The notes: generated by a model from the sequence alone, not told the origin. A stretch of 64,000 bases of DNA from Neophaeotheca triangularis (GCA_054600435.1 BAAIJX010000053.1:1-64000); one strand, 5' to 3'. Positions 42,298 through 49,627 are shown, numbered from the stretch's first letter. Translations and numbers: made by a program.

Positions 42298-44105
42298 TCA
42301 CTTCCTCTCCAAATTCTTATAAAGCACCTGCTCGCGCATCGTAAAACTGACCAGCGCCGCGAGCGTTGCGAACCCCAACACGACGACCCACACCCCACGC
42401 AGCGCATCAACGTAAGCGGCAATAACGCCATCATGCCAGCCCTCGGGCAATTTGGAAATCTCGTCGACCGAGTCCCGTAGCCTTCCGATTTCCTCCGCGG
42501 CGCCCGGGAACCCGGCGAAGCGGTCGTTGAGGCCGTGTTTGAGGAGATTGGAGAAGACGGAGCCGGCGATGGTGATGCCTATGGAGGAGCCGGTGGAGCG
42601 AAAAGCGTACGAAGCGGAAGTTGCCACGGCTTGGTATTTGTGGTCGACGCTTGCGATGAGCGCGAGAAGTGTGACTGTCAAAGTGCAGCCGTATGCGGTG
42701 CCTGTTAGGAAGAGGTAGATGAAGGGCGGCGCGGTTTGCACGTCTCGAGTGAAAGTCGCGAGGATCAGGGCTGCGGCGGTGATGGAAGTGAGCTGCGCGA
42801 GCACGTTGAGCCACCAGTAGCGGCCGGTTTTGCGCATTAAGAGGCCCGCGCTCAGTGAGCCTAGGGCGGTGCCTGCGCTTTGCGGGATTAGGCGGTAGCC
42901 GGCTTCTTGGGCGGAGAGGCCGAGGACGACCTGGAAATATATCGGGCCGTAGTAGAGGAGGGCGAATATTGACATGGTGATGAACCAATTTGTTGCGCAG
43001 GCTGCTGCTACGGTTCTGTCCAGGAGCATGCGCACGGGGATGACGGGTTCCGATGCCACTCGGTCTTCGACATAGATGAAGACGAGGAGGAAGAATAGGC
43101 TGAGTGGAAGCGAGACGGTGACTAGAGGGTGGCTCCAAGGTACGATGTTGCCTCCGCTGTTGAGTCCCAGCAACAGCAGTACAAGTGTTGCGCTCAGCGT
43201 GGCCGCGCCTAGGAAGTCAACCCTCCTAATCTTCGAGCCGTCTGTCTCCTTGATGGGCACGTCGATGGAGATATATGCGGAAATCCCAGCCAGGATGATG
43301 AACGGGATCTGGAGGTAGAAGGCCCAGCGCCAGCCGATAGTATCGTGCATGGCACCTCCAAAAACCCCACCTAAACCCATACCGGTCCCGAATACCAAAT
43401 TTCCAATCCCTTGCCACACACCTCGCCTCCTCAATGGTATCAGGTCACTTCCCACAAACGTGCTGATCGTGTTCAGGCAGCCTCCACCCATGCCTGCAAT
43501 GACTCTCCCGGCGACGATGAGCCATGCGGAAGTAGCCAGCCCGCACATCAGCGTGCCAGCGGCGAAGAAGATGGAGGCGAAAGCTATCCCGGTCCTCCTA
43601 CCGTAAATATCGGTCAGCTTGCCGGAGAGCGGTTGACAAGCGGCGTTTGCGACCAGGTAGCCTGTAGCGAGCCATGAGAAGAGCGTAAAGGACTCGAACT
43701 CGGTACTAATGGGACCGGAGAGGGTCGCGATGATGGTAGAGTCTGAAGCATGGCCGTCAGTATGCGCTCCTACGATGCAGTTTCACTTTGCCCTACCTAA
43801 AGCAGCCATGAAAGTTCCAGCCCAGAGTCTGTCGATCATTCCCATGTCAGTCAGTGCTTTAAGACCTCCTACCAAATTCTTGATCCTACTCACGATCCCA
43901 TAGTAACCACCAACTTCCTCGTGCTCGGCTCATCAGCTATAGGCACGGTATTGGCCTCGTACTCTCTTCGCTCCTGTTCAGCCTGCGCCTCGATCGTCCC
44001 ATTGTCGGACGCTCGACTGCCCGCTGCGCCCAGCAGAGGGTCAGTCTCCCGCTCATCCACCGGCGTAGGCGAGACCACCTTCAATCCAGCTTCCTTGCGC
44101 GCCAT
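42298..44105 (-). CDS. MFS 14-TM (DHA2 / Vba-Fnx1-like) transporter; exons 44105-43894, 43828-43797, 43742-42298
   Basis: ETDPLL dileucine vacuolar-type signal, AALDSTIIATL, GKLTDIYGRR, IGWRWAFY and DFLGA; two in-phase introns. Confidence 0.9.
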
Positions 44106-45337
44106 GAATGTGAACAATATCCGGTGCGAGGCTCATTGTAGGCAAAGTGCTTGGAGGTGTTGTCGTTGGGTGACTGTTCGGCGCTCTAGCCGGGTAGTGG
44201 GTCGCCCTGGTCGCCGACTCGGCTGAACGTTCATTCGCCTTCCCCATGTGGTATGGCGCGCCAGCATCCGGTATCGCATGAGCCTGCAGCTCCAACATCA
44301 CCTCGTCACTTTGTCGAAAGGCCGAATGATGATGGATTCTATTAAGAAATCCATATGCGCGTAACACCGAGCTCGGCAAGCCTCTGGACTTGATGAGTTG
44401 GACATCCAGAGATGTCATACGCTTTCCACGCCTTCATCAAAGCTCGGAGGGCCCACGCAAATTAGCAGAACGTACTCCTCGTATCACATACGCCTGAAAT
44501 CGCTCAATGTGCCCGGGGGCGCGAGACATTGGAATGCCGTTGTGATTGAGCTCTTCCAAGGACGGTGCGCAGCAGCTGGTCTGACGAGTTCGGAGAAGGC
44601 ATTGTTCCAGTAACATGGACTGCAAGCCTACACCACCAGTACCACCGTGGCTCACATGGTCGCATATGGCGTTCAACGTCCCTGGTACGCTCGATTGCAG
44701 AAAATGGAATGCACAAGAAAGACGTGTCGAGGATCTCCAGCTGTTGTGGTGACCTCTCGATTGGAGTCGATAATCGTATGGCGGCTTCCACGCAACAGAT
44801 TTCCTCTCGGTTAGGAGCCAAGGGGACCTGTGTGCAGACCAGAGCGGATAATTTGAGGCCTTAGTTTATGCGCGAGGTCGGACTAGACGATGGTGATATT
44901 GTGAAGGAAGATCACAAGATGTGGAGAGCTACTCCGAGAATCCGAAGACACAAGGCTCGCAAGCTCGGATGCAATTTGATCTGTCAAGACCTCAAGAATC
45001 GCTCAATCAACGCGTTACGCCTCAGCGATGACAATGCCTCAGACAAGTATGTCGCAAGGCTGCACCTGCGAATCTCCACCTCATGACAAGACAATTTATT
45101 CAAAATGCTGCCAAGCTTCAGCATAAACCAGGACGCCCCTGCCACTGTGTCAAGATATCGGGAAGTGCTACAAGGAGATGTTTGCCGTCTGAGAGGATCC
45201 GATAGCAAGTACTTTGTCGTGGTCGGAGTGGGTGTGAAAGAGCTCCGGTCTAGAGATCACCAAGTCACAGGCGACATCCCTTAGCAAAAGTTTCTAGACT
45301 ATATATTTACCCCGTCGCCGACCACATTATGTGAGTG

Positions 45338-45598
45338 AGAAACTTGAAAACTTGAATTAATGATTTACAATGGTCTAATGGCTGGTAACCACACAGACCT
45401 TCCCTCTTGCTGACCCCCCTTAGATTCTCAAGTTATAGATAAGACTGCGGTTCGAATCCCAGCTCTATACACTTCGCAAAAGCAAACCAGCCTTCGGGTG
45501 CGGGTTCTGCTAAGTGGTTTCTTCTCCCTTTGGGAGTTTCTTTTTGCCTTTTTCCCTCGGTAAGTGGGAGAAGGCATTGGAGGTGGGTGCTGTTTTTT
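45338..45598 (+). ncRNA. Candidate structured Pol III (A-box/B-box) RNA or tRNA-derived element; not a canonical tRNA
   Basis: A-box TGGTCTAATGG 45371-45381 and perfect B-box GGTTCGAATCC 45449-45459. TATATA at ~45300, several helices including a C(UUCG)G tetraloop, and T-runs at 45537-45545 and 45593-45598. Confidence 0.5.
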
Positions 45599-45902: not shown

Positions 45903-48444
45903 CTATGCTATCAGACGTAAGTCTCCTTCCTCCGGCAAGGCTCCGACCGCCTCGCAGAGGTCTCTGATGTCGCGAACATCGTCACCTTGCCTCAACGGCC
46001 AAACAATCTTCGAAAGCTTCTCCTCCAAGTTGACGAACTGCTCTAATCCGACGGGAACGAAATAGTGACACCCTGAGCGCTCAAGGCCTGACCTTCCACT
46101 GTATGGGGCGTTGCTCCTTCCCTTCTTCCTCCACAGATCCCGGCCATATCTCATGACTTCGGCCACTCCGCCACTGGCTATCACCAGGTCTGTGACGACG
46201 TCGCACAACAACGCCATGGCTTTTCCCTCGTCGCTGGGGTATAGTTCGTGCCACTGCTCACTCTTTGGCTTGCGCCAATGGCCAGGAGTCACAGGTATCC
46301 ATTCCACTCTCGAAAGACACTGCAACTCGGTGTCCTCCTTTTCGGGTAGCAAATTTCGTTTCTTCCGAAAGACAGTCAGGGCCTGCCAGCGTCTCACGAA
46401 CGACTTTGAGGCATTTACAAGGGCGGTGTCCGGATGCGCCAGGGCGGGTTCGATAGCTGTGCCCAAGGCTAGGTCGAGCGTGAGGCTAACCTTGGGTACA
46501 CCACAAGCATCGTAACGCATGACGTCGTCGAGCAGAAAGTAAGCGTTCAACGCGATGGTTTTCCAATGTGCGAGAAGTGCGGCAACGTCGTCGTGGGGAG
46601 GTGGGTCCGCGACGACGTGGACGTGGAGGAAGCGACGGACGTGCTGCTCATGTCGAAAGGCATCGCGCAGCTCCACACGGCCATCTAGATGATTTTCCCA
46701 GGTCACTTTGACGCCGTTGACGTACACCCGAAACGGCTTTCTGCTGTGGAGCTCGAGGAGAAGCGTAGAATATTTCCGAAAGACGTAGAGTGCTTCATTG
46801 CGCACGTCGTACGAGCTCTTGTGCATATCATACAAGAGGCGATTTGACACGCTCGGATGCGGCATGAAGTCGTTGCTTGCCAAAGCGTGCCGGAGGACCC
46901 TGCTGCGAAGCTCCCAAGGCAACTTCATCAACGGGAGTGCACCTGGTACCTTTGCAGCGCAATGGATCTGCATCATGCGATTTCTTTCGCTGAGGAGCCC
47001 TATAGCAAGGTCAGCGGACGTTGTCAGGTGTTAACGAGACATGGACTCATACATGCAATGGAAGTGTTCCGATCATTCTGCTCGACCGGGTCCTTGCGCA
47101 GTTCCAAACCAGCGTCATCTTGATCACAGAACAAGGGCGTATCCCATGCTTACCATGTCAGCATGCTTGGCTCTACTTGGTAAATAGACAAGCCTCACTC
47201 ACGTCCTACCCACAATGGGCAAGCAGGGAATCCGCACTTTGTGCGGTGAGCCCCGAACGTAAAATGATAGCAGACTCGTTCAATGCTGGGCAAGCACAAC
47301 GGGCCGGATGCCTGAAGGAGTTCACGCAGGAATTGCTATTCTTGCTCATTAGTATTCGGAAGATTGCGGCCCAATTCTGGAAAGAACATACTGAATAGCG
47401 CACAATGCGACGCCACTTGTGGTAGTCTGCAGGCATTAGATTGTCATCCATTCGGGAGAGTTCTTCGTTATTGCCGACTTCAAAACCATATCGTCGCGCC
47501 ATTGGGCCGCAGTTTTCGCACTTATCGACATGGTCACTTAGCTCGCATGATGCATCTCCCCCGTCGCGATTGAGCCTGCCATTGTATTCTTGCGGGTTGT
47601 CTTGCTCGGAAAGGGTAGGCGATTCCAGCACAGGCCCTTCTATTGCAGACGAAGTGTGAAGGTTACGTGGCGTTGGACCTGGTTTTGCCCTGTCACTTGA
47701 ATAGTCATTTCCGGTATTCAATTCTGCGTCCTCTCCGGCTTTGTCTTCGTGGCAAAATTCCTCGTCGTCGTTATCCAGAATATTTGTGGGGGCCTCCAAG
47801 TCCTTGGTCGTTTTGTTGTCGTCATCAAGTATGAGGTCGCAAGCTGTGGTAGCCAAAGTATCATCGTCAAATGCACGGTTGGTTCCGATAGACCGCGTTT
47901 CCAGAGATATCGCTTCATCGATCCTCGCCGCGCTTTTCAGGGGCTCAAGAGATTCGTGAAGCAGGTCACAGGGTGAGCGGTCGTCCACTGCAACGGTCGA
48001 TACTTCCTCTTTGCGCACTGATAATCCACGCATTGAGAAACTTCGGTGCCATCGTTTGTCGGTTTTGGAAGGCCTTCTTGGAAGTTTGCAAGGGCTTGGT
48101 GCTGTTCTTGTTTGCCGCCATCGACACTGATCGTCGTGCTTGCGATTCGGTCGGCGCGTACCAGTTCCCCAGATGTCCGCATCGTTCTTAGTGAAGCTAC
48201 CCTTTTCGTCCATGAATTCATTGGCGGTGCTGGAGATAGACATAGACCGCACATGACTAAGTTCCTTTGGCCTTTCCCGCGCGCTCAATGTATCCGGACG
48301 AGCTCTGCCTCGCGCAATAATGTCTTTCCATCTGTTCAGCGTGTCGGACAATTTCCAAGCGCCTTTCAAAATACGCCATGTGCGCGAGTCCACAGACCGC
48401 TCATCGTTTGTCGGACACGGCCGGCCTGGAGTGGTGACGCCCAT
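45903..48444 (-). CDS. Hypothetical 792-aa protein with an internal F-box-like motif; exons 48444-47392, 47335-47203, 47148-47053, 46999-45903
   Basis: Three short canonical introns (56, 54, 53 nt; GTATGT/GTGAGT/GTATGA donors, TACTAAT/GCTGAC branches) join two long ORFs in frame. LMKLPWELRSRVLRHAL resembles the fungal F-box/2EXR-like LPxELR motif. Confidence 0.65.
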
Positions 48445-49627
48445 GGCCTTGCAAAGGGTACTATGGTTTGATTGGACGAAGAACAAGCTGCTCGAGGACC
48501 ACAACTCTGCGAAATCGAAAGGGAAAAAGATGAAAAGAAGAAGACTACAAGGAATTCGAGCATGACCCATATATCTACTTTTTAGCTGAGTCCGTTGACG
48601 CGACAAGTGGCAACCAAGAGCTTCGCATAGCCATTGACTGTCAGCTCTTGTCATGAACAGGCTTGAATGCTTACCATTGGATGATAGCGTTCCGCAAATT
48701 GGTCTAACATCCAACAAGTAATACTTTGCTTATATGGGCACGCCCTGATTGGACCGCGGGAAAATTATACCAAGGCCTTGATCGGGACTGCATCAACACA
48801 GCCTGCCTGAGGGGCCAGAGCTCCACAGTACCCATGGAAGAAGAGGCGTGCAAGCTGTAGCTATCAATTGGAGAGGAGCCTGTGGCGCGCTCGTGTCTGG
48901 CGTAGGAATGATAGCCCAGTGTTGGTGTAGCGCATGCGTAGACTACGATCAGGTGGGAGTGATTGCTAAGCGTCACGTATGTGAGCTCGTGGATCCGCAT
49001 GAAACTACTGAGAAGGGTTGACTGCTGTACGACATTTGGCAAGCGGCTATCGGAATGGTCTCCTTCGAGCCGACAAAGAATCATCGGCAAATGTCGGGGT
49101 AGCGGTGGCATCGCGTTTGGTCGTTGGGCCCATCCTGAAGGCACGAGTGACTATCGAGTCACTGGCTGCCGTGAAGATCCAGCTTCAATGCTGAGGAGCC
49201 TGAGGTCTTATTGGGTGAGTGAAGGTGAGCAACGGGGAAGCATAGGGCTTGGGCACGCTTAGTGTACTGGGCAGGTGTGTTCCAGGGACAAGCTCGATCA
49301 ATCGAAGGACGGGGCGGCAAATGTAAGAAGAGACGATGAAGCAGAAGGATGGGAACGAGGATGAGAATGGGGGACGTAGCTTCTATTTAGTAAGGGGCCT
49401 TATTTGTAAAGCAGCTCGTTGCTTGGGGCTAGAAGATAATCTTATCTAATCAGATTTCAATCACCAGATAAGATTGGGAGCAGTCTCATCGCTCAGCCCC
49501 TCGATCTCTGCCCAAAAATTGTAAGAGCGCCCGTACTTCTATGCCTCTGAGGTCTGTTATCTCCTCTCACCGTTCACTCTCCCGACCGTTCTATCTACCT
49601 AGAAATATCCACGTCGGCTTCCGCAAA

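What the first reader, a model, noticed from the sequence alone, without database searches (positions are those of the whole stretch)
45300..45598. Structured A-box/B-box RNA candidate that is not a tRNA (four-way junction plus terminal hairpins)
Seen: TATATA at ~45300, A-box TGGTCTAATGG (45371-81) and B-box GGTTCGAATCC (45449-59). Helices abut in a four-way junction: AGAAAC 45338-43 with GTTTCT 45517-22, ACTTGA 45350-55 with TCAAGT 45428-33, TATAGA 45434-39 with TCTATA 45464-69 (carrying the T-loop-like hairpin), and CACTT 45470-74 with AAGTG 45512-16 (capped by C(UUCG)G). A CTCCC/GGGAG hairpin and TTTCTTTTT follow, then a ~12-bp hairpin (45545-76) and T6. No acceptor stem or anticodon arm can be built, and SRP helix 8, U6 ACAGAGA and U1 ACUUAC motifs are absent. 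An alternative pairing GGCTGGT (45380-86) with ACCAGCC (45486-92) recalls Y/vault RNA termini. A possible spliceosomal intron (GTGAGT 45331..GCTGAC 45409..TAG 45423) overlaps it. Inference: an unannotated Pol III RNA, a milRNA precursor, a tRNA-derived SINE head or a TFIIIC (ETC-like) site.
Basis: partly seen in the sequence, partly recalled or inferred. Interest (0 to 1): 0.7.

Follow-up and report, generated by a model that had tools for sequence, protein, structure and literature searches.

The report
Unknown spliced Pol III RNA family
This is one copy of an apparently undescribed family of small non-coding RNA genes in a fungus, whose members keep the same folded 70-base end while their front ends are borrowed from U6 or tRNA genes, so it may be a new kind of functional RNA, though no one has yet shown that it is made.

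Summary
The stretch is one of at least 24 dispersed loci on 20 contigs of this fungal genome. Members share a layout (TATA, short exon, spliceosomal intron, B box, T-run) and one conserved ~70-nt 3' domain (45478-45545): an A-rich strand, two hairpins whose lengths vary while pairing is kept, and two mirrored U-rich strands. The 5' parts are unrelated: two members carry the U6 promoter and 5' stem-loop, this subfamily a tRNA-like A box and T arm. It is not tRNA, any Rfam family, or a disguised U1-U6, U3, SRP, RNase P or MRP (all found elsewhere). It fails the SINE tests: introns kept, ragged flanks, no target-site duplications. Best reading: a Pol III small-RNA family whose 3' domain is the working part, possibly closing its U-tail in a triple helix like a permuted MALAT1 element. 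No reads and no other fungal genome were available, so expression, splicing and conservation across species are untested.

The parts
45262..45275 (+). Upstream motif shared by most young and older copies (possible upstream promoter element)
   Evidence: Alignment of 15 loci; not tested further
45297..45306 (+). TATA box; by the U6 spacing in this genome (first T about 29 nt before the gene) it predicts a start near 45329-45331
   Evidence: 97% and 90% identical in 7 young and 4 older copies against 61% and 54% for the spacer behind it; U6 spacing; start site inferred
45348..45358 (+). Conserved motif of unknown role between TATA and A box; an A-box-directed start would lie here
   Evidence: Several invariant columns in 12 copies; unexplained
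45371..45381 (+). tRNA-type A box; its first bases also start a 5-bp stem (45372-76 with 45395-99) that encloses the splice donor
   Evidence: Profile P 0.002 in the 8 young copies only, not significant in 13 others; stem 86% paired in a partly misaligned alignment, compensatory changes visible
45385..45423 (+). Putative spliceosomal intron, 39 nt: donor GTAACC, branch GCTGAC 45409-14, acceptor TAG
   Evidence: Donor identical in 12 of 12 copies, branch in all 8 young copies; follows the A box as do introns of 54-68 nt with common donors in 7 divergent members; splicing not shown; donor weak and intron short
45445..45462 (+). T-arm-like hairpin holding the B box (45449-45459)
   Evidence: Profile P<=0.01 in 18 of 21 members; varies only within the tRNA T-loop consensus in L011-L013
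45478..45489 (+). A-rich strand of the conserved 3' domain; pairs with U strand 1 (helix P1 and its extension, C45483 bulged)
   Evidence: AAG-N(1-2)-AAA in 18 of 20 core members, lost only in L010 (no promoter) and L014 (no B box); helix 98% paired
45490..45499 (+). Hairpin P2 (C(UUCG)G here; stem 3-7 bp and loop variable in the family)
   Evidence: Length-varying stems with pairing kept in L011, L012, L084, L088, L113, L083, L105
45500..45511 (+). Variable segment, hairpin P3 in some members, absent in the two distant ones
   Evidence: 5-6 bp with compensatory changes in L084/L088, weak or missing in others
45512..45523 (+). Conserved AAG junction strand and U strand 1 (TTT-C-TT at 45518-23)
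   Evidence: 19 of 20 core members; in CACTT/AAGTG it has a competing partner in the young copies
45524..45536 (+). Hairpin P4 (3-7 bp in the family)
   Evidence: pattern spanning U1-P4-U2 gives 15 hits against 0 for the reversed control
45537..45545 (+). U strand 2 (TTT-C-TTT) running into the T5 that is the likely Pol III terminator
   Evidence: Present in 20 of 20 core members on reading the sequences printed (the script's test passed 18 and mis-parsed P4 in L014 and L088); same CTTTTTGCC context ends SRP and U5 here
45546..45598 (+). Copy-specific hairpin and T6; flank, at most a read-through terminator
   Evidence: 35-41% identity in other copies

Best explanation
[quoted passage not shown] TFIIIC binds the internal B box (and the A box where kept) and TFIIIB sits on the TATA box. 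The polymerase starts about 30 nt downstream (about 45330) and stops in the T-run at 45541-45545, giving about 215 nt. The spliceosome removes a short intron (about 177 nt left here; this copy's donor is weak and may be spliced poorly). The 5' two-thirds mainly carries the promoter and has been replaced in evolution by pieces of different Pol III genes (U6 in two members, tRNA-like in others). The working part is the last 70 nt: a junction (P1, P2, optional P3) followed by hairpin P4, with the A-rich strand engaging two mirrored U-rich strands. My preferred mechanism for that domain is a short U.A-U/C.G-C triple helix that folds the terminal U-tail back onto P1 and protects the 3' end of a stable RNP scaffold (about 0.3); alternative pairing of the A strand with either U strand is nearly as good (about 0.25). 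Shown: the family, its layout, selection on the signals and on the domain, P2 and P4, the U6 origin of two 5' ends. Inferred: transcription, polymerase, splicing, ends, triple helix, function.
For: 24 loci on 20 contigs; family patterns give 15 and 20 hits against 0 controls (19 of the 20 are members). Domain 98%/93% identical against 61%/54% for the spacer. B box by motif inside the unit in 20 of 21 full-length members, in unalignable contexts and inside the intron in L015, L028, L113, as in Schizosaccharomyces U6 (title in the reference list of PMC5855946). L028 and L113 align to the U6 TATA, 5' stem-loop and A box with scores 54 and 38 against shuffle maxima 24 and 27. Layout matches U6, U5, SRP here and not the CT-rich promoters and TTTCATCA/TGGAGAAG ends of U1 and U2 (0 of 22 members have them). 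Model-fitted alignment of 22: 97.7% paired, 5 pairs with double changes, 0 of 500 shuffles. Copies that lost the promoter (L010), the B box (L014) or were split by an insertion (C55) carry the changes at otherwise fixed positions. In distant L083 the A strand has C for G and both U strands have GG for C.
Against: No read or contig covers the element, and no second fungal genome was reachable, so all conservation is between paralogues. The domain is no more stable than shuffles (z -0.1 here; range +0.8 to -2.5) and the MFE folds differ among members. The alignment was fitted to the structure, and some double changes come from shifts in stem length; on plain alignments covariation was absent or not significant. 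The A box is significant in only 8 of 21 and lies 71 nt from the TATA, against about 40 in tRNA and U6 genes here. TATA is clear in 17 of 21. GTAACC is a rare donor (1 seen, 0.2 expected) and the 38-42-nt introns are short. The T-run is only 3-4 T in several members. G in the third strand of L083 suits Watson-Crick alternation better than a standard triple, and L105 has no mirrored U strand.
Confidence: 0.65

Rival explanations
1. Pol III milRNA precursors: the transcript is cut by Dicer or RNase Z and a small RNA starting near TAAG (45511) is loaded on Argonaute.
For: Neurospora milR-1 to -4 are Pol III products with TATA-like elements, about 170-nt precursors and a T cluster right behind the small RNA (PMC3547838, parts 1-2 read). 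The most constant stretch starts with U and lies just before the T-run.
Against: No long hairpin for Dicer; longest conserved helix about 9 bp with a bulge. Both strands of P1 and the second U strand are conserved, not one arm. Strings of the domain occur in 0 papers of the library.
Confidence: 0.1
2. A tRNA-derived SINE or other selfish repeat whose 3' domain is a recognition tail.
For: Dispersed copies at 75-94% identity, tRNA-like head in this subfamily; low-copy fungal SINEs exist (abstract of PMC5063351).
Against: Introns are kept in 19 of 19 full-length core members. The upstream TATA is copied and conserved. Homology ends raggedly from -449 to +468. Longest flanking repeats (6-10 nt) match the controls. 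No poly(A) or repeat tail. No domain hit lies at the end of a long ORF shared among loci. Conservation follows signals, not position.
Confidence: 0.07
3. Short spliced Pol II transcripts (snoRNA-host-like) in which the B box is incidental and the domain is a stability or processing element, perhaps a true ENE that binds a poly(A) tail.
For: Canonical introns in divergent members; U3 here also has a TATA-like box and an intron; pyrimidine runs ending in AG follow the domain in L015, L028, L029.
Against: B box kept in 20 of 21, U6 promoter in two members, none of the Pol II snRNA end signals. The C in both U strands calls for the G of the encoded A strand, not poly(A).
Confidence: 0.1
4. A DNA-level TFIIIC site (ETC-like boundary) or a decayed Pol III gene family with no working RNA.
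For: No expression data; weak folding; three copies are visibly decayed.
Against: A TFIIIC site needs no splice signals and no length-varying stems; the domain, not the B box, is the best-kept part among distant members.
Confidence: 0.06
5. Spliced mRNAs for a small peptide.
For: Removing the intron opens a reading of about 50 codons in this copy.
Against: Longest ATG frame after in-silico splicing runs from 0 to 62 codons over 19 members, 7-17 in four of the eight young copies.
Confidence: 0.02

Closest known systems
Fungal U6 snRNA genes (TATA + A box + B box; spliceosomal introns; B box in the intron in Schizosaccharomyces)
   Same: Gene layout, Pol III signals, introns in a Pol III unit (PMC5855946 passages); two members carry a real U6 5' end.
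   Different: No ACAGAGA box, AGC triad or internal stem-loop; Rfam U6 does not match; 10 ordinary U6 genes exist elsewhere.
MALAT1/MEN-beta triple helix and ENE/dENE stability elements
   Same: Two U-rich strands interrupted by C on either side of a hairpin, and an encoded A-rich strand with a matching G (PMC7583470, PMC13541005 passages).
   Different: The A strand lies upstream, not at the 3' end; about 6 triples at most; Pol III-type gene ending in U; no downstream tRNA-like element; no conserved lower stem; not in a transposon.
S. cerevisiae RPR1 and SNR52 (Pol III genes with a disposable A/B-box leader; recalled, no call)
   Same: Promoter-bearing 5' part in front of the conserved RNA.
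   Different: No RNase P P4 and no C/D boxes; this genome's RNase P RNA is separate and has a Pol II-type promoter.
Neurospora milR-1 to milR-4 precursors
   Same: Pol III, TATA-like element, about 170 nt, T cluster at the end.
   Different: milR-1 has no A or B box; ours has a B box and introns, no long hairpin, and is a 24-locus family.
Fungal tRNA-derived SINEs (AfuSINE2)
   Same: tRNA-like head, unrelated body, low copy number, similar length (abstract).
   Different: No target-site duplication or tail, introns and upstream promoter kept, heads of different origin on one body.
Intergenic structure 2 of Gao, Jones and Rivas 2021 (Pezizomycotina, 144 nt)
   Same: Intergenic structured RNA of unknown function in filamentous ascomycetes (PMC8216456, table passage and section 17).
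   Different: Reported as mostly single copy; its sequence could not be read (supplement unreadable), so identity is not excluded.

Membership tests
tRNA | Cloverleaf with acceptor stem and anticodon arm | tested here: not met
   ARAGORN 0 genes; no RF00005 match in the window
Pol III type 2/hybrid gene | Internal B box | tested here: met
   20 of 21 by motif, 18 of 21 at P<=0.01 by profile
Pol III type 2/hybrid gene | A box | tested here: inconclusive
   Significant in 8 of 21, this copy included
Pol III type 2/hybrid gene | T-run at the 3' end | tested here: met
   T4 or longer 56-71 nt behind the core in 21 of 21
Pol III type 2/hybrid gene | Pol III occupancy and transcript | not testable with these tools
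   Only two small-share contig runs, neither covers the element
Spliceosomal snRNA (U1, U2, U4, U5, U6) | Rfam match, family motifs, Sm site, pairing to U6 | tested here: not met
   Sm pattern 0 of 22; no antisense match above shuffles; each snRNA found elsewhere
SRP, RNase P, RNase MRP, U3 | Rfam match | tested here: not met
   No match on members; separate genes above cut-off
C/D or H/ACA snoRNA | C and D boxes, or H box plus 3' ACA | tested here: not met
   C box 0 of 22, 3' ACA 0 of 22, CTGA in the domain 2 of 22
Telomerase RNA | Template for the telomere repeat; Ascomycota model | tested here: inconclusive
   CCCTAA 1 of 22, TAACCC 2 of 22 (repeat recalled); no RF02462 match on members, but the genome search found the gene nowhere
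SINE | Target-site duplication, tail, fixed ends, no introns or upstream promoter | tested here: not met
Y RNA / vault RNA | Paired termini of the GGCUGG type (recalled) | tested here: not met
   5' partner altered in 4 of 12 copies and not seen in the divergent members as read; no Rfam match
ENE / MALAT1-type triple helix | U-rich strands with a complementary A-rich tract in register | tested here: met
   All three strands in register in 18 of 20 core members (with L088 read by eye)
ENE / MALAT1-type triple helix | A tract or poly(A) downstream, at the 3' end, and a lower stem closing the loop | tested here: not met
   A strand is upstream; no conserved lower stem
ENE / MALAT1-type triple helix | Triple formation and stabilising activity | not testable with these tools
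   Needs melting, probing or a reporter
milRNA precursor | Dicer-type hairpin and discrete small RNA from one arm | tested here: inconclusive
   No long conserved hairpin; no small-RNA data

The most novel reading that the evidence does not exclude
An old class of fungal Pol III RNAs, spliced by the spliceosome, whose mobile 70-nt domain has repeatedly picked up new promoters from U6 and tRNA genes and whose U-tail folds back as the third strand of a circularly permuted MALAT1-like triple helix (or switches partners on the A strand), giving a new way to finish and protect a Pol III 3' end.
Probability: 0.3. Interest if true: 0.88.

Novelty: categorically new. Interest (0 to 1): 0.72.

Why it matters
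The Pol III catalogue of filamentous fungi is thought to be short (tRNA, 5S, U6, SRP, a few milRNA precursors; recalled). A 24-locus family kept under selection, with members too far apart to align outside one domain, would add a class of RNA and predicts orthologues that a covariance model can find at once. It offers a natural series for three questions: how Pol III transcripts are spliced, how new Pol III genes arise by promoter capture (caught here from U6), and whether triple helices can protect U-tailed RNAs. The described protective triple helices capture an A tract at the 3' end; this one would do the reverse. If no RNA is made, the interest falls to that of a conserved repeat.

Tried and rejected
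Reads: two runs with small shares; each laid one 151-nt contig at 44974-45142, none on the element; no evidence either way. Other genomes: the single metagenome scan gave 1 hit inside a GC-rich bacterial-type gene region, judged chance; 49 viral and 10 prokaryote pattern hits scored E>=0.19 with model R1. tRNA-Pro as the source of the head (recalled resemblance): the pattern found 11 of 11 hits in family members and no tRNA; tRNA-Glu(CUC) was closest among 14 tRNAs, largely through the B box. Guide role for snRNAs, U3, SRP, P or MRP: no antisense run above shuffles in 11 RNAs; one duplex P of 0.02 (U2) is not significant over 11 tests. The likeness of the domain's pyrimidine strand to the complement of the element behind U1/U2 genes is set aside, because that element pairs with its own upstream partner (by eye). 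rRNA targets were not tested. Looser census pattern: 8 new hits against 7 controls, none with the flanks of the family; L119 and three hits rejected likewise. L083 and L105 have no close paralogues. Rfam at E<=10 on 12 further members: 3 chance matches. Papers: searches listed nothing describing this family; six strings of the domain gave 0 papers; the library lacks most subscription papers and figures, and one relevant supplement was unreadable. Earlier scan notes: nothing.

Full report
Setting. The window is fungal (25.4 Mb, 136 contigs; Fungi_SRP and Fungi_U3 above cut-off); a filamentous ascomycete is inferred, the class was not determined. The element lies between an MFS transporter gene (42298-43782, minus; Pfam MFS_1) and a 375-codon frame without Pfam match (45903-47030, minus), and overlaps no known gene.

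The observation. All motifs are at the stated places. There is no tRNA and no Rfam family. The A and B boxes are real by a profile built from 14 nuclear tRNAs of this genome. The four-way junction is not: the region folds no better than shuffles (z +1.14), the closing helix is 61-81% paired over 12 copies, and the last hairpin is private to this copy. CACTT/AAGTG is 97% paired with one double change and may be a real alternative in the young copies.

A family. A DNA search of the own genome gave 19 matches at 18 places, 75-94% identical for the long ones. Patterns and one further DNA search added six loci: 24 loci on 20 contigs, a lower bound. They fall into 8 young intact copies (L001-L008, this one included), 4 older ones (L011-L014), 7 divergent ones that do not align with this copy outside the 3' domain (L015, L027, L028, L029, L084, L088, L113), 2 distant longer ones (L083, L105) and 3 broken ones (L009 cut at 3', L010 cut at 5', C55 split by an insertion). 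L096, L098 and L099 in some calls are the same places as L027, L028 and L029. Identity to this copy by region (7 young / 4 older): TATA 0.97/0.90, spacer 0.61/0.54, donor 1.00/1.00, intron middle 0.79/0.56, branch 1.00/0.75, B box 1.00/0.73, 3' domain 0.98/0.93, last hairpin 0.35/0.41. Selection follows the signals.

Which polymerase. I fetched this genome's own small-RNA genes as yardsticks. U6 (10 matches, 6 read), SRP (1) and U5 (2) have a TATA about 30 nt upstream, a B box inside or behind, and a T-run. U1 (12 matches, 8 read), U2 (10, 4 read), U4, U3, P and MRP have CT-rich promoters and no B box; U1 and U2 end in TTTCATCA...TGGAGAAG. The family follows the first group: B box by motif in 20 of 21 full-length members, clear TATA in 17, T4 or longer in 21, Pol II end signals in 0 of 22. 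The strongest sign is origin: L028 aligns over 59 columns with the U6 TATA, 5' stem-loop and A box (score 54, shuffle maximum 24), and L113 likewise (38 against 27); L015 has a tRNA-Ala-like D-loop that supplies its splice donor (25 against 24, marginal); this subfamily has a tRNA-like A box and T arm (14 members tested against 26 references). One 3' domain thus sits behind promoters of different origin. Against: the A box is significant in 8 of 21 only and lies 71 nt from the TATA here, so the start could be 45330 or 45350.

Introns. All 19 full-length core members parse as GT donor, branch-like site and AG (the expression was tuned to the members, and the branch is degenerate in L013 and L014). 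A generic intron pattern occurs in 12 of 984 window tiles. Divergent members have 54-68-nt introns, mostly with common donors; the B box lies inside an intron in L015, L028 and L113. In the young and older copies the intron is 38-49 nt with the rare donor GTAACC, fixed in 12 of 12 and enclosed by a covarying stem, so it may be spliced weakly or kept for structure. Spliced Pol III RNA is known from S. pombe U6, and fungal U6 genes often carry introns (PMC5855946, passages). This lineage puts introns into small RNAs readily: U2 (7 of 10 matches are 50-60 nt longer, intron seen in both read), U4 and U3. No frame is conserved after splicing.

How copies spread. Homology runs raggedly into the flanks (-449 to +468 from the core), flanking repeats are no longer than controls, there is no tail, and introns and upstream promoter are copied. 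That is DNA-level duplication with birth and death of copies, as for the 10-12 U1, U2 and U6 genes here, and not retroposition.

The 3' domain (45478-45545). Order: A strand (AAAAG-C-AAACCA), hairpin P2, variable P3, AAG, U strand 1 (GG-TTT-C-TT), hairpin P4, U strand 2 (TTT-C-TTT), terminator. P2 runs from 3 to 7 bp and P4 from 3 to 7 bp with pairing kept. On the alignment fitted to model R1 (22 sequences; L105 scored below the cut-off and L009 has no domain) 97.7% of cells pair and 5 pairs change on both sides, 0 of 500 shuffles; the fit inflates this, and plain alignments gave 0 double changes in 18 pairs and 2 in 31, not significant. The domain is not unusually stable. The three strands are in register in 18 of 20 core members; the two failures are L010, without promoter, and L014, without B box, and the split C55 copy is also changed at fixed positions. 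In L083 the A strand has C for G, and both U strands have GG for C (one sequence, model E 0.007). So both U strands answer to the A strand. Two mechanisms fit. (a) Triple helix: A strand and U strand 1 pair, P4 turns the chain, and U strand 2 runs back parallel in the major groove, giving two U.A-U, one C.G-C and three U.A-U triples and burying the terminal U-tail; three T after the C are the minimum seen, equal to the three A. (b) Switch or sliding junction: the A strand pairs with either U strand; the two constrained folds lie within about 4 kcal/mol in 14 of 14 members, and the G in L083 suits this better. L105 keeps P1 with a changed extension but has no mirrored strand. Part of U strand 2 is also explained as the terminator. 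I give (a) 0.3, (b) 0.25, and protein recognition or something else the rest.

Comparison. The gene works like fungal U6 in layout and like RPR1/SNR52 (recalled) in having a promoter-bearing leader. The domain resembles the MALAT1/MEN-beta element, whose U-rich loop is interrupted by G and C that meet a downstream A tract (PMC7583470, passages; PMC13541005, passages), but the A strand is upstream, so it is not an ENE by definition. It fails membership in tRNA, snRNA, snoRNA, SRP, P/MRP, Y/vault and SINE; telomerase RNA and milRNA precursor are unlikely but not closed (PMC3547838 parts 1-2 of 5). Passages of two fungal motif screens (PMC5640933; PMC8216456) and of a milRNA re-analysis (PMC9757828) describe nothing like it, but figures are not held and the supplement of PMC8216456 could not be read; its intergenic structure 2 remains unchecked. 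PMC5063351 was seen as abstract and outline only. Nine searches listed no description.

Limits and verdict. Everything rests on one genome. No reads covered the element, and the collections within reach held no fungal relative. The family, its selection pattern and its Pol III-type, intron-bearing layout are shown; transcription, splicing, ends and the triple helix are inferred. Best explanation 0.65. Novelty: no known family fits, filed as categorically new with perhaps a one-in-five chance that it is described where I could not look. Interest 0.72.

Noticed in passing
L072 (G000:C64:48703-48816) and L073 (G000:C19:184228-184336): Both U5 snRNA genes look Pol III-transcribed: TATA about 30 nt upstream, a B-box-like sequence in the 3' stem and a T-run, unlike U1, U2 and U4 here. 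One paper search listed nothing on this for filamentous fungi.
   Followed up: partly
Own genome: Spliceosomal RNA genes are amplified: U6 10, U2 10, U1 12, U4 5 matches; 7 U2 matches are 50-60 nt longer (intron in the two read) and one U4 read has an intron; U6 copies cluster on C19 and C44.
   Followed up: partly
L067-L070, L074-L081, 3' flanks: U1 and U2 genes end in TTTCATCA and, 25-45 nt on, TGGAGAAG; the two can pair as the base of a hairpin, perhaps an RNase III-type 3' processing signal (mechanism recalled).
   Followed up: no
L237 (G000:C55:87644-88256, approximate): A 0.6-kb miniature inverted-repeat element with 15-bp terminal repeats and an 8-bp target duplication (hAT-like, recalled) splits one family member; no other copy among the loci held.
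   Followed up: partly
window 44594-44606 and 45568-45580: A 13-bp direct repeat flanks about 970 bp that include the element; perhaps the scar of the duplication, perhaps chance.
   Followed up: no
L128 (G000:C4:512500-512900) and L127 (G000:C4:481950-482230): Two single-copy, longer, structured B-box units that share only the junction core; they may be separate RNAs or the ancestral forms.
   Followed up: partly
L084, L088, just before the A strand: A TGGATAACCA motif recalls the TGGTAACCA that holds the donor in this subfamily, at a different place; unexplained.
   Followed up: no
window 45903-47030 and 47206-48729 (minus): Two long open frames (375 and 507 codons) without any Pfam match.
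   Followed up: no
L217 (G000:C46:33785-34309): RNase MRP RNA match is 525 nt, about twice the model length.
   Followed up: no
G000:C10:11189-11612 (L032): A cluster of AT-rich, mitochondrial-type tRNA genes near the start of a 614-kb contig: a mitochondrial insertion or an assembly join.
   Followed up: no
L173, L176, L177, L193, L199, L201, L210 (viral contigs): Seven related phage stretches match the core pattern with a covarying inner stem; they do not score with model R1 and may be coding sequence.
   Followed up: no
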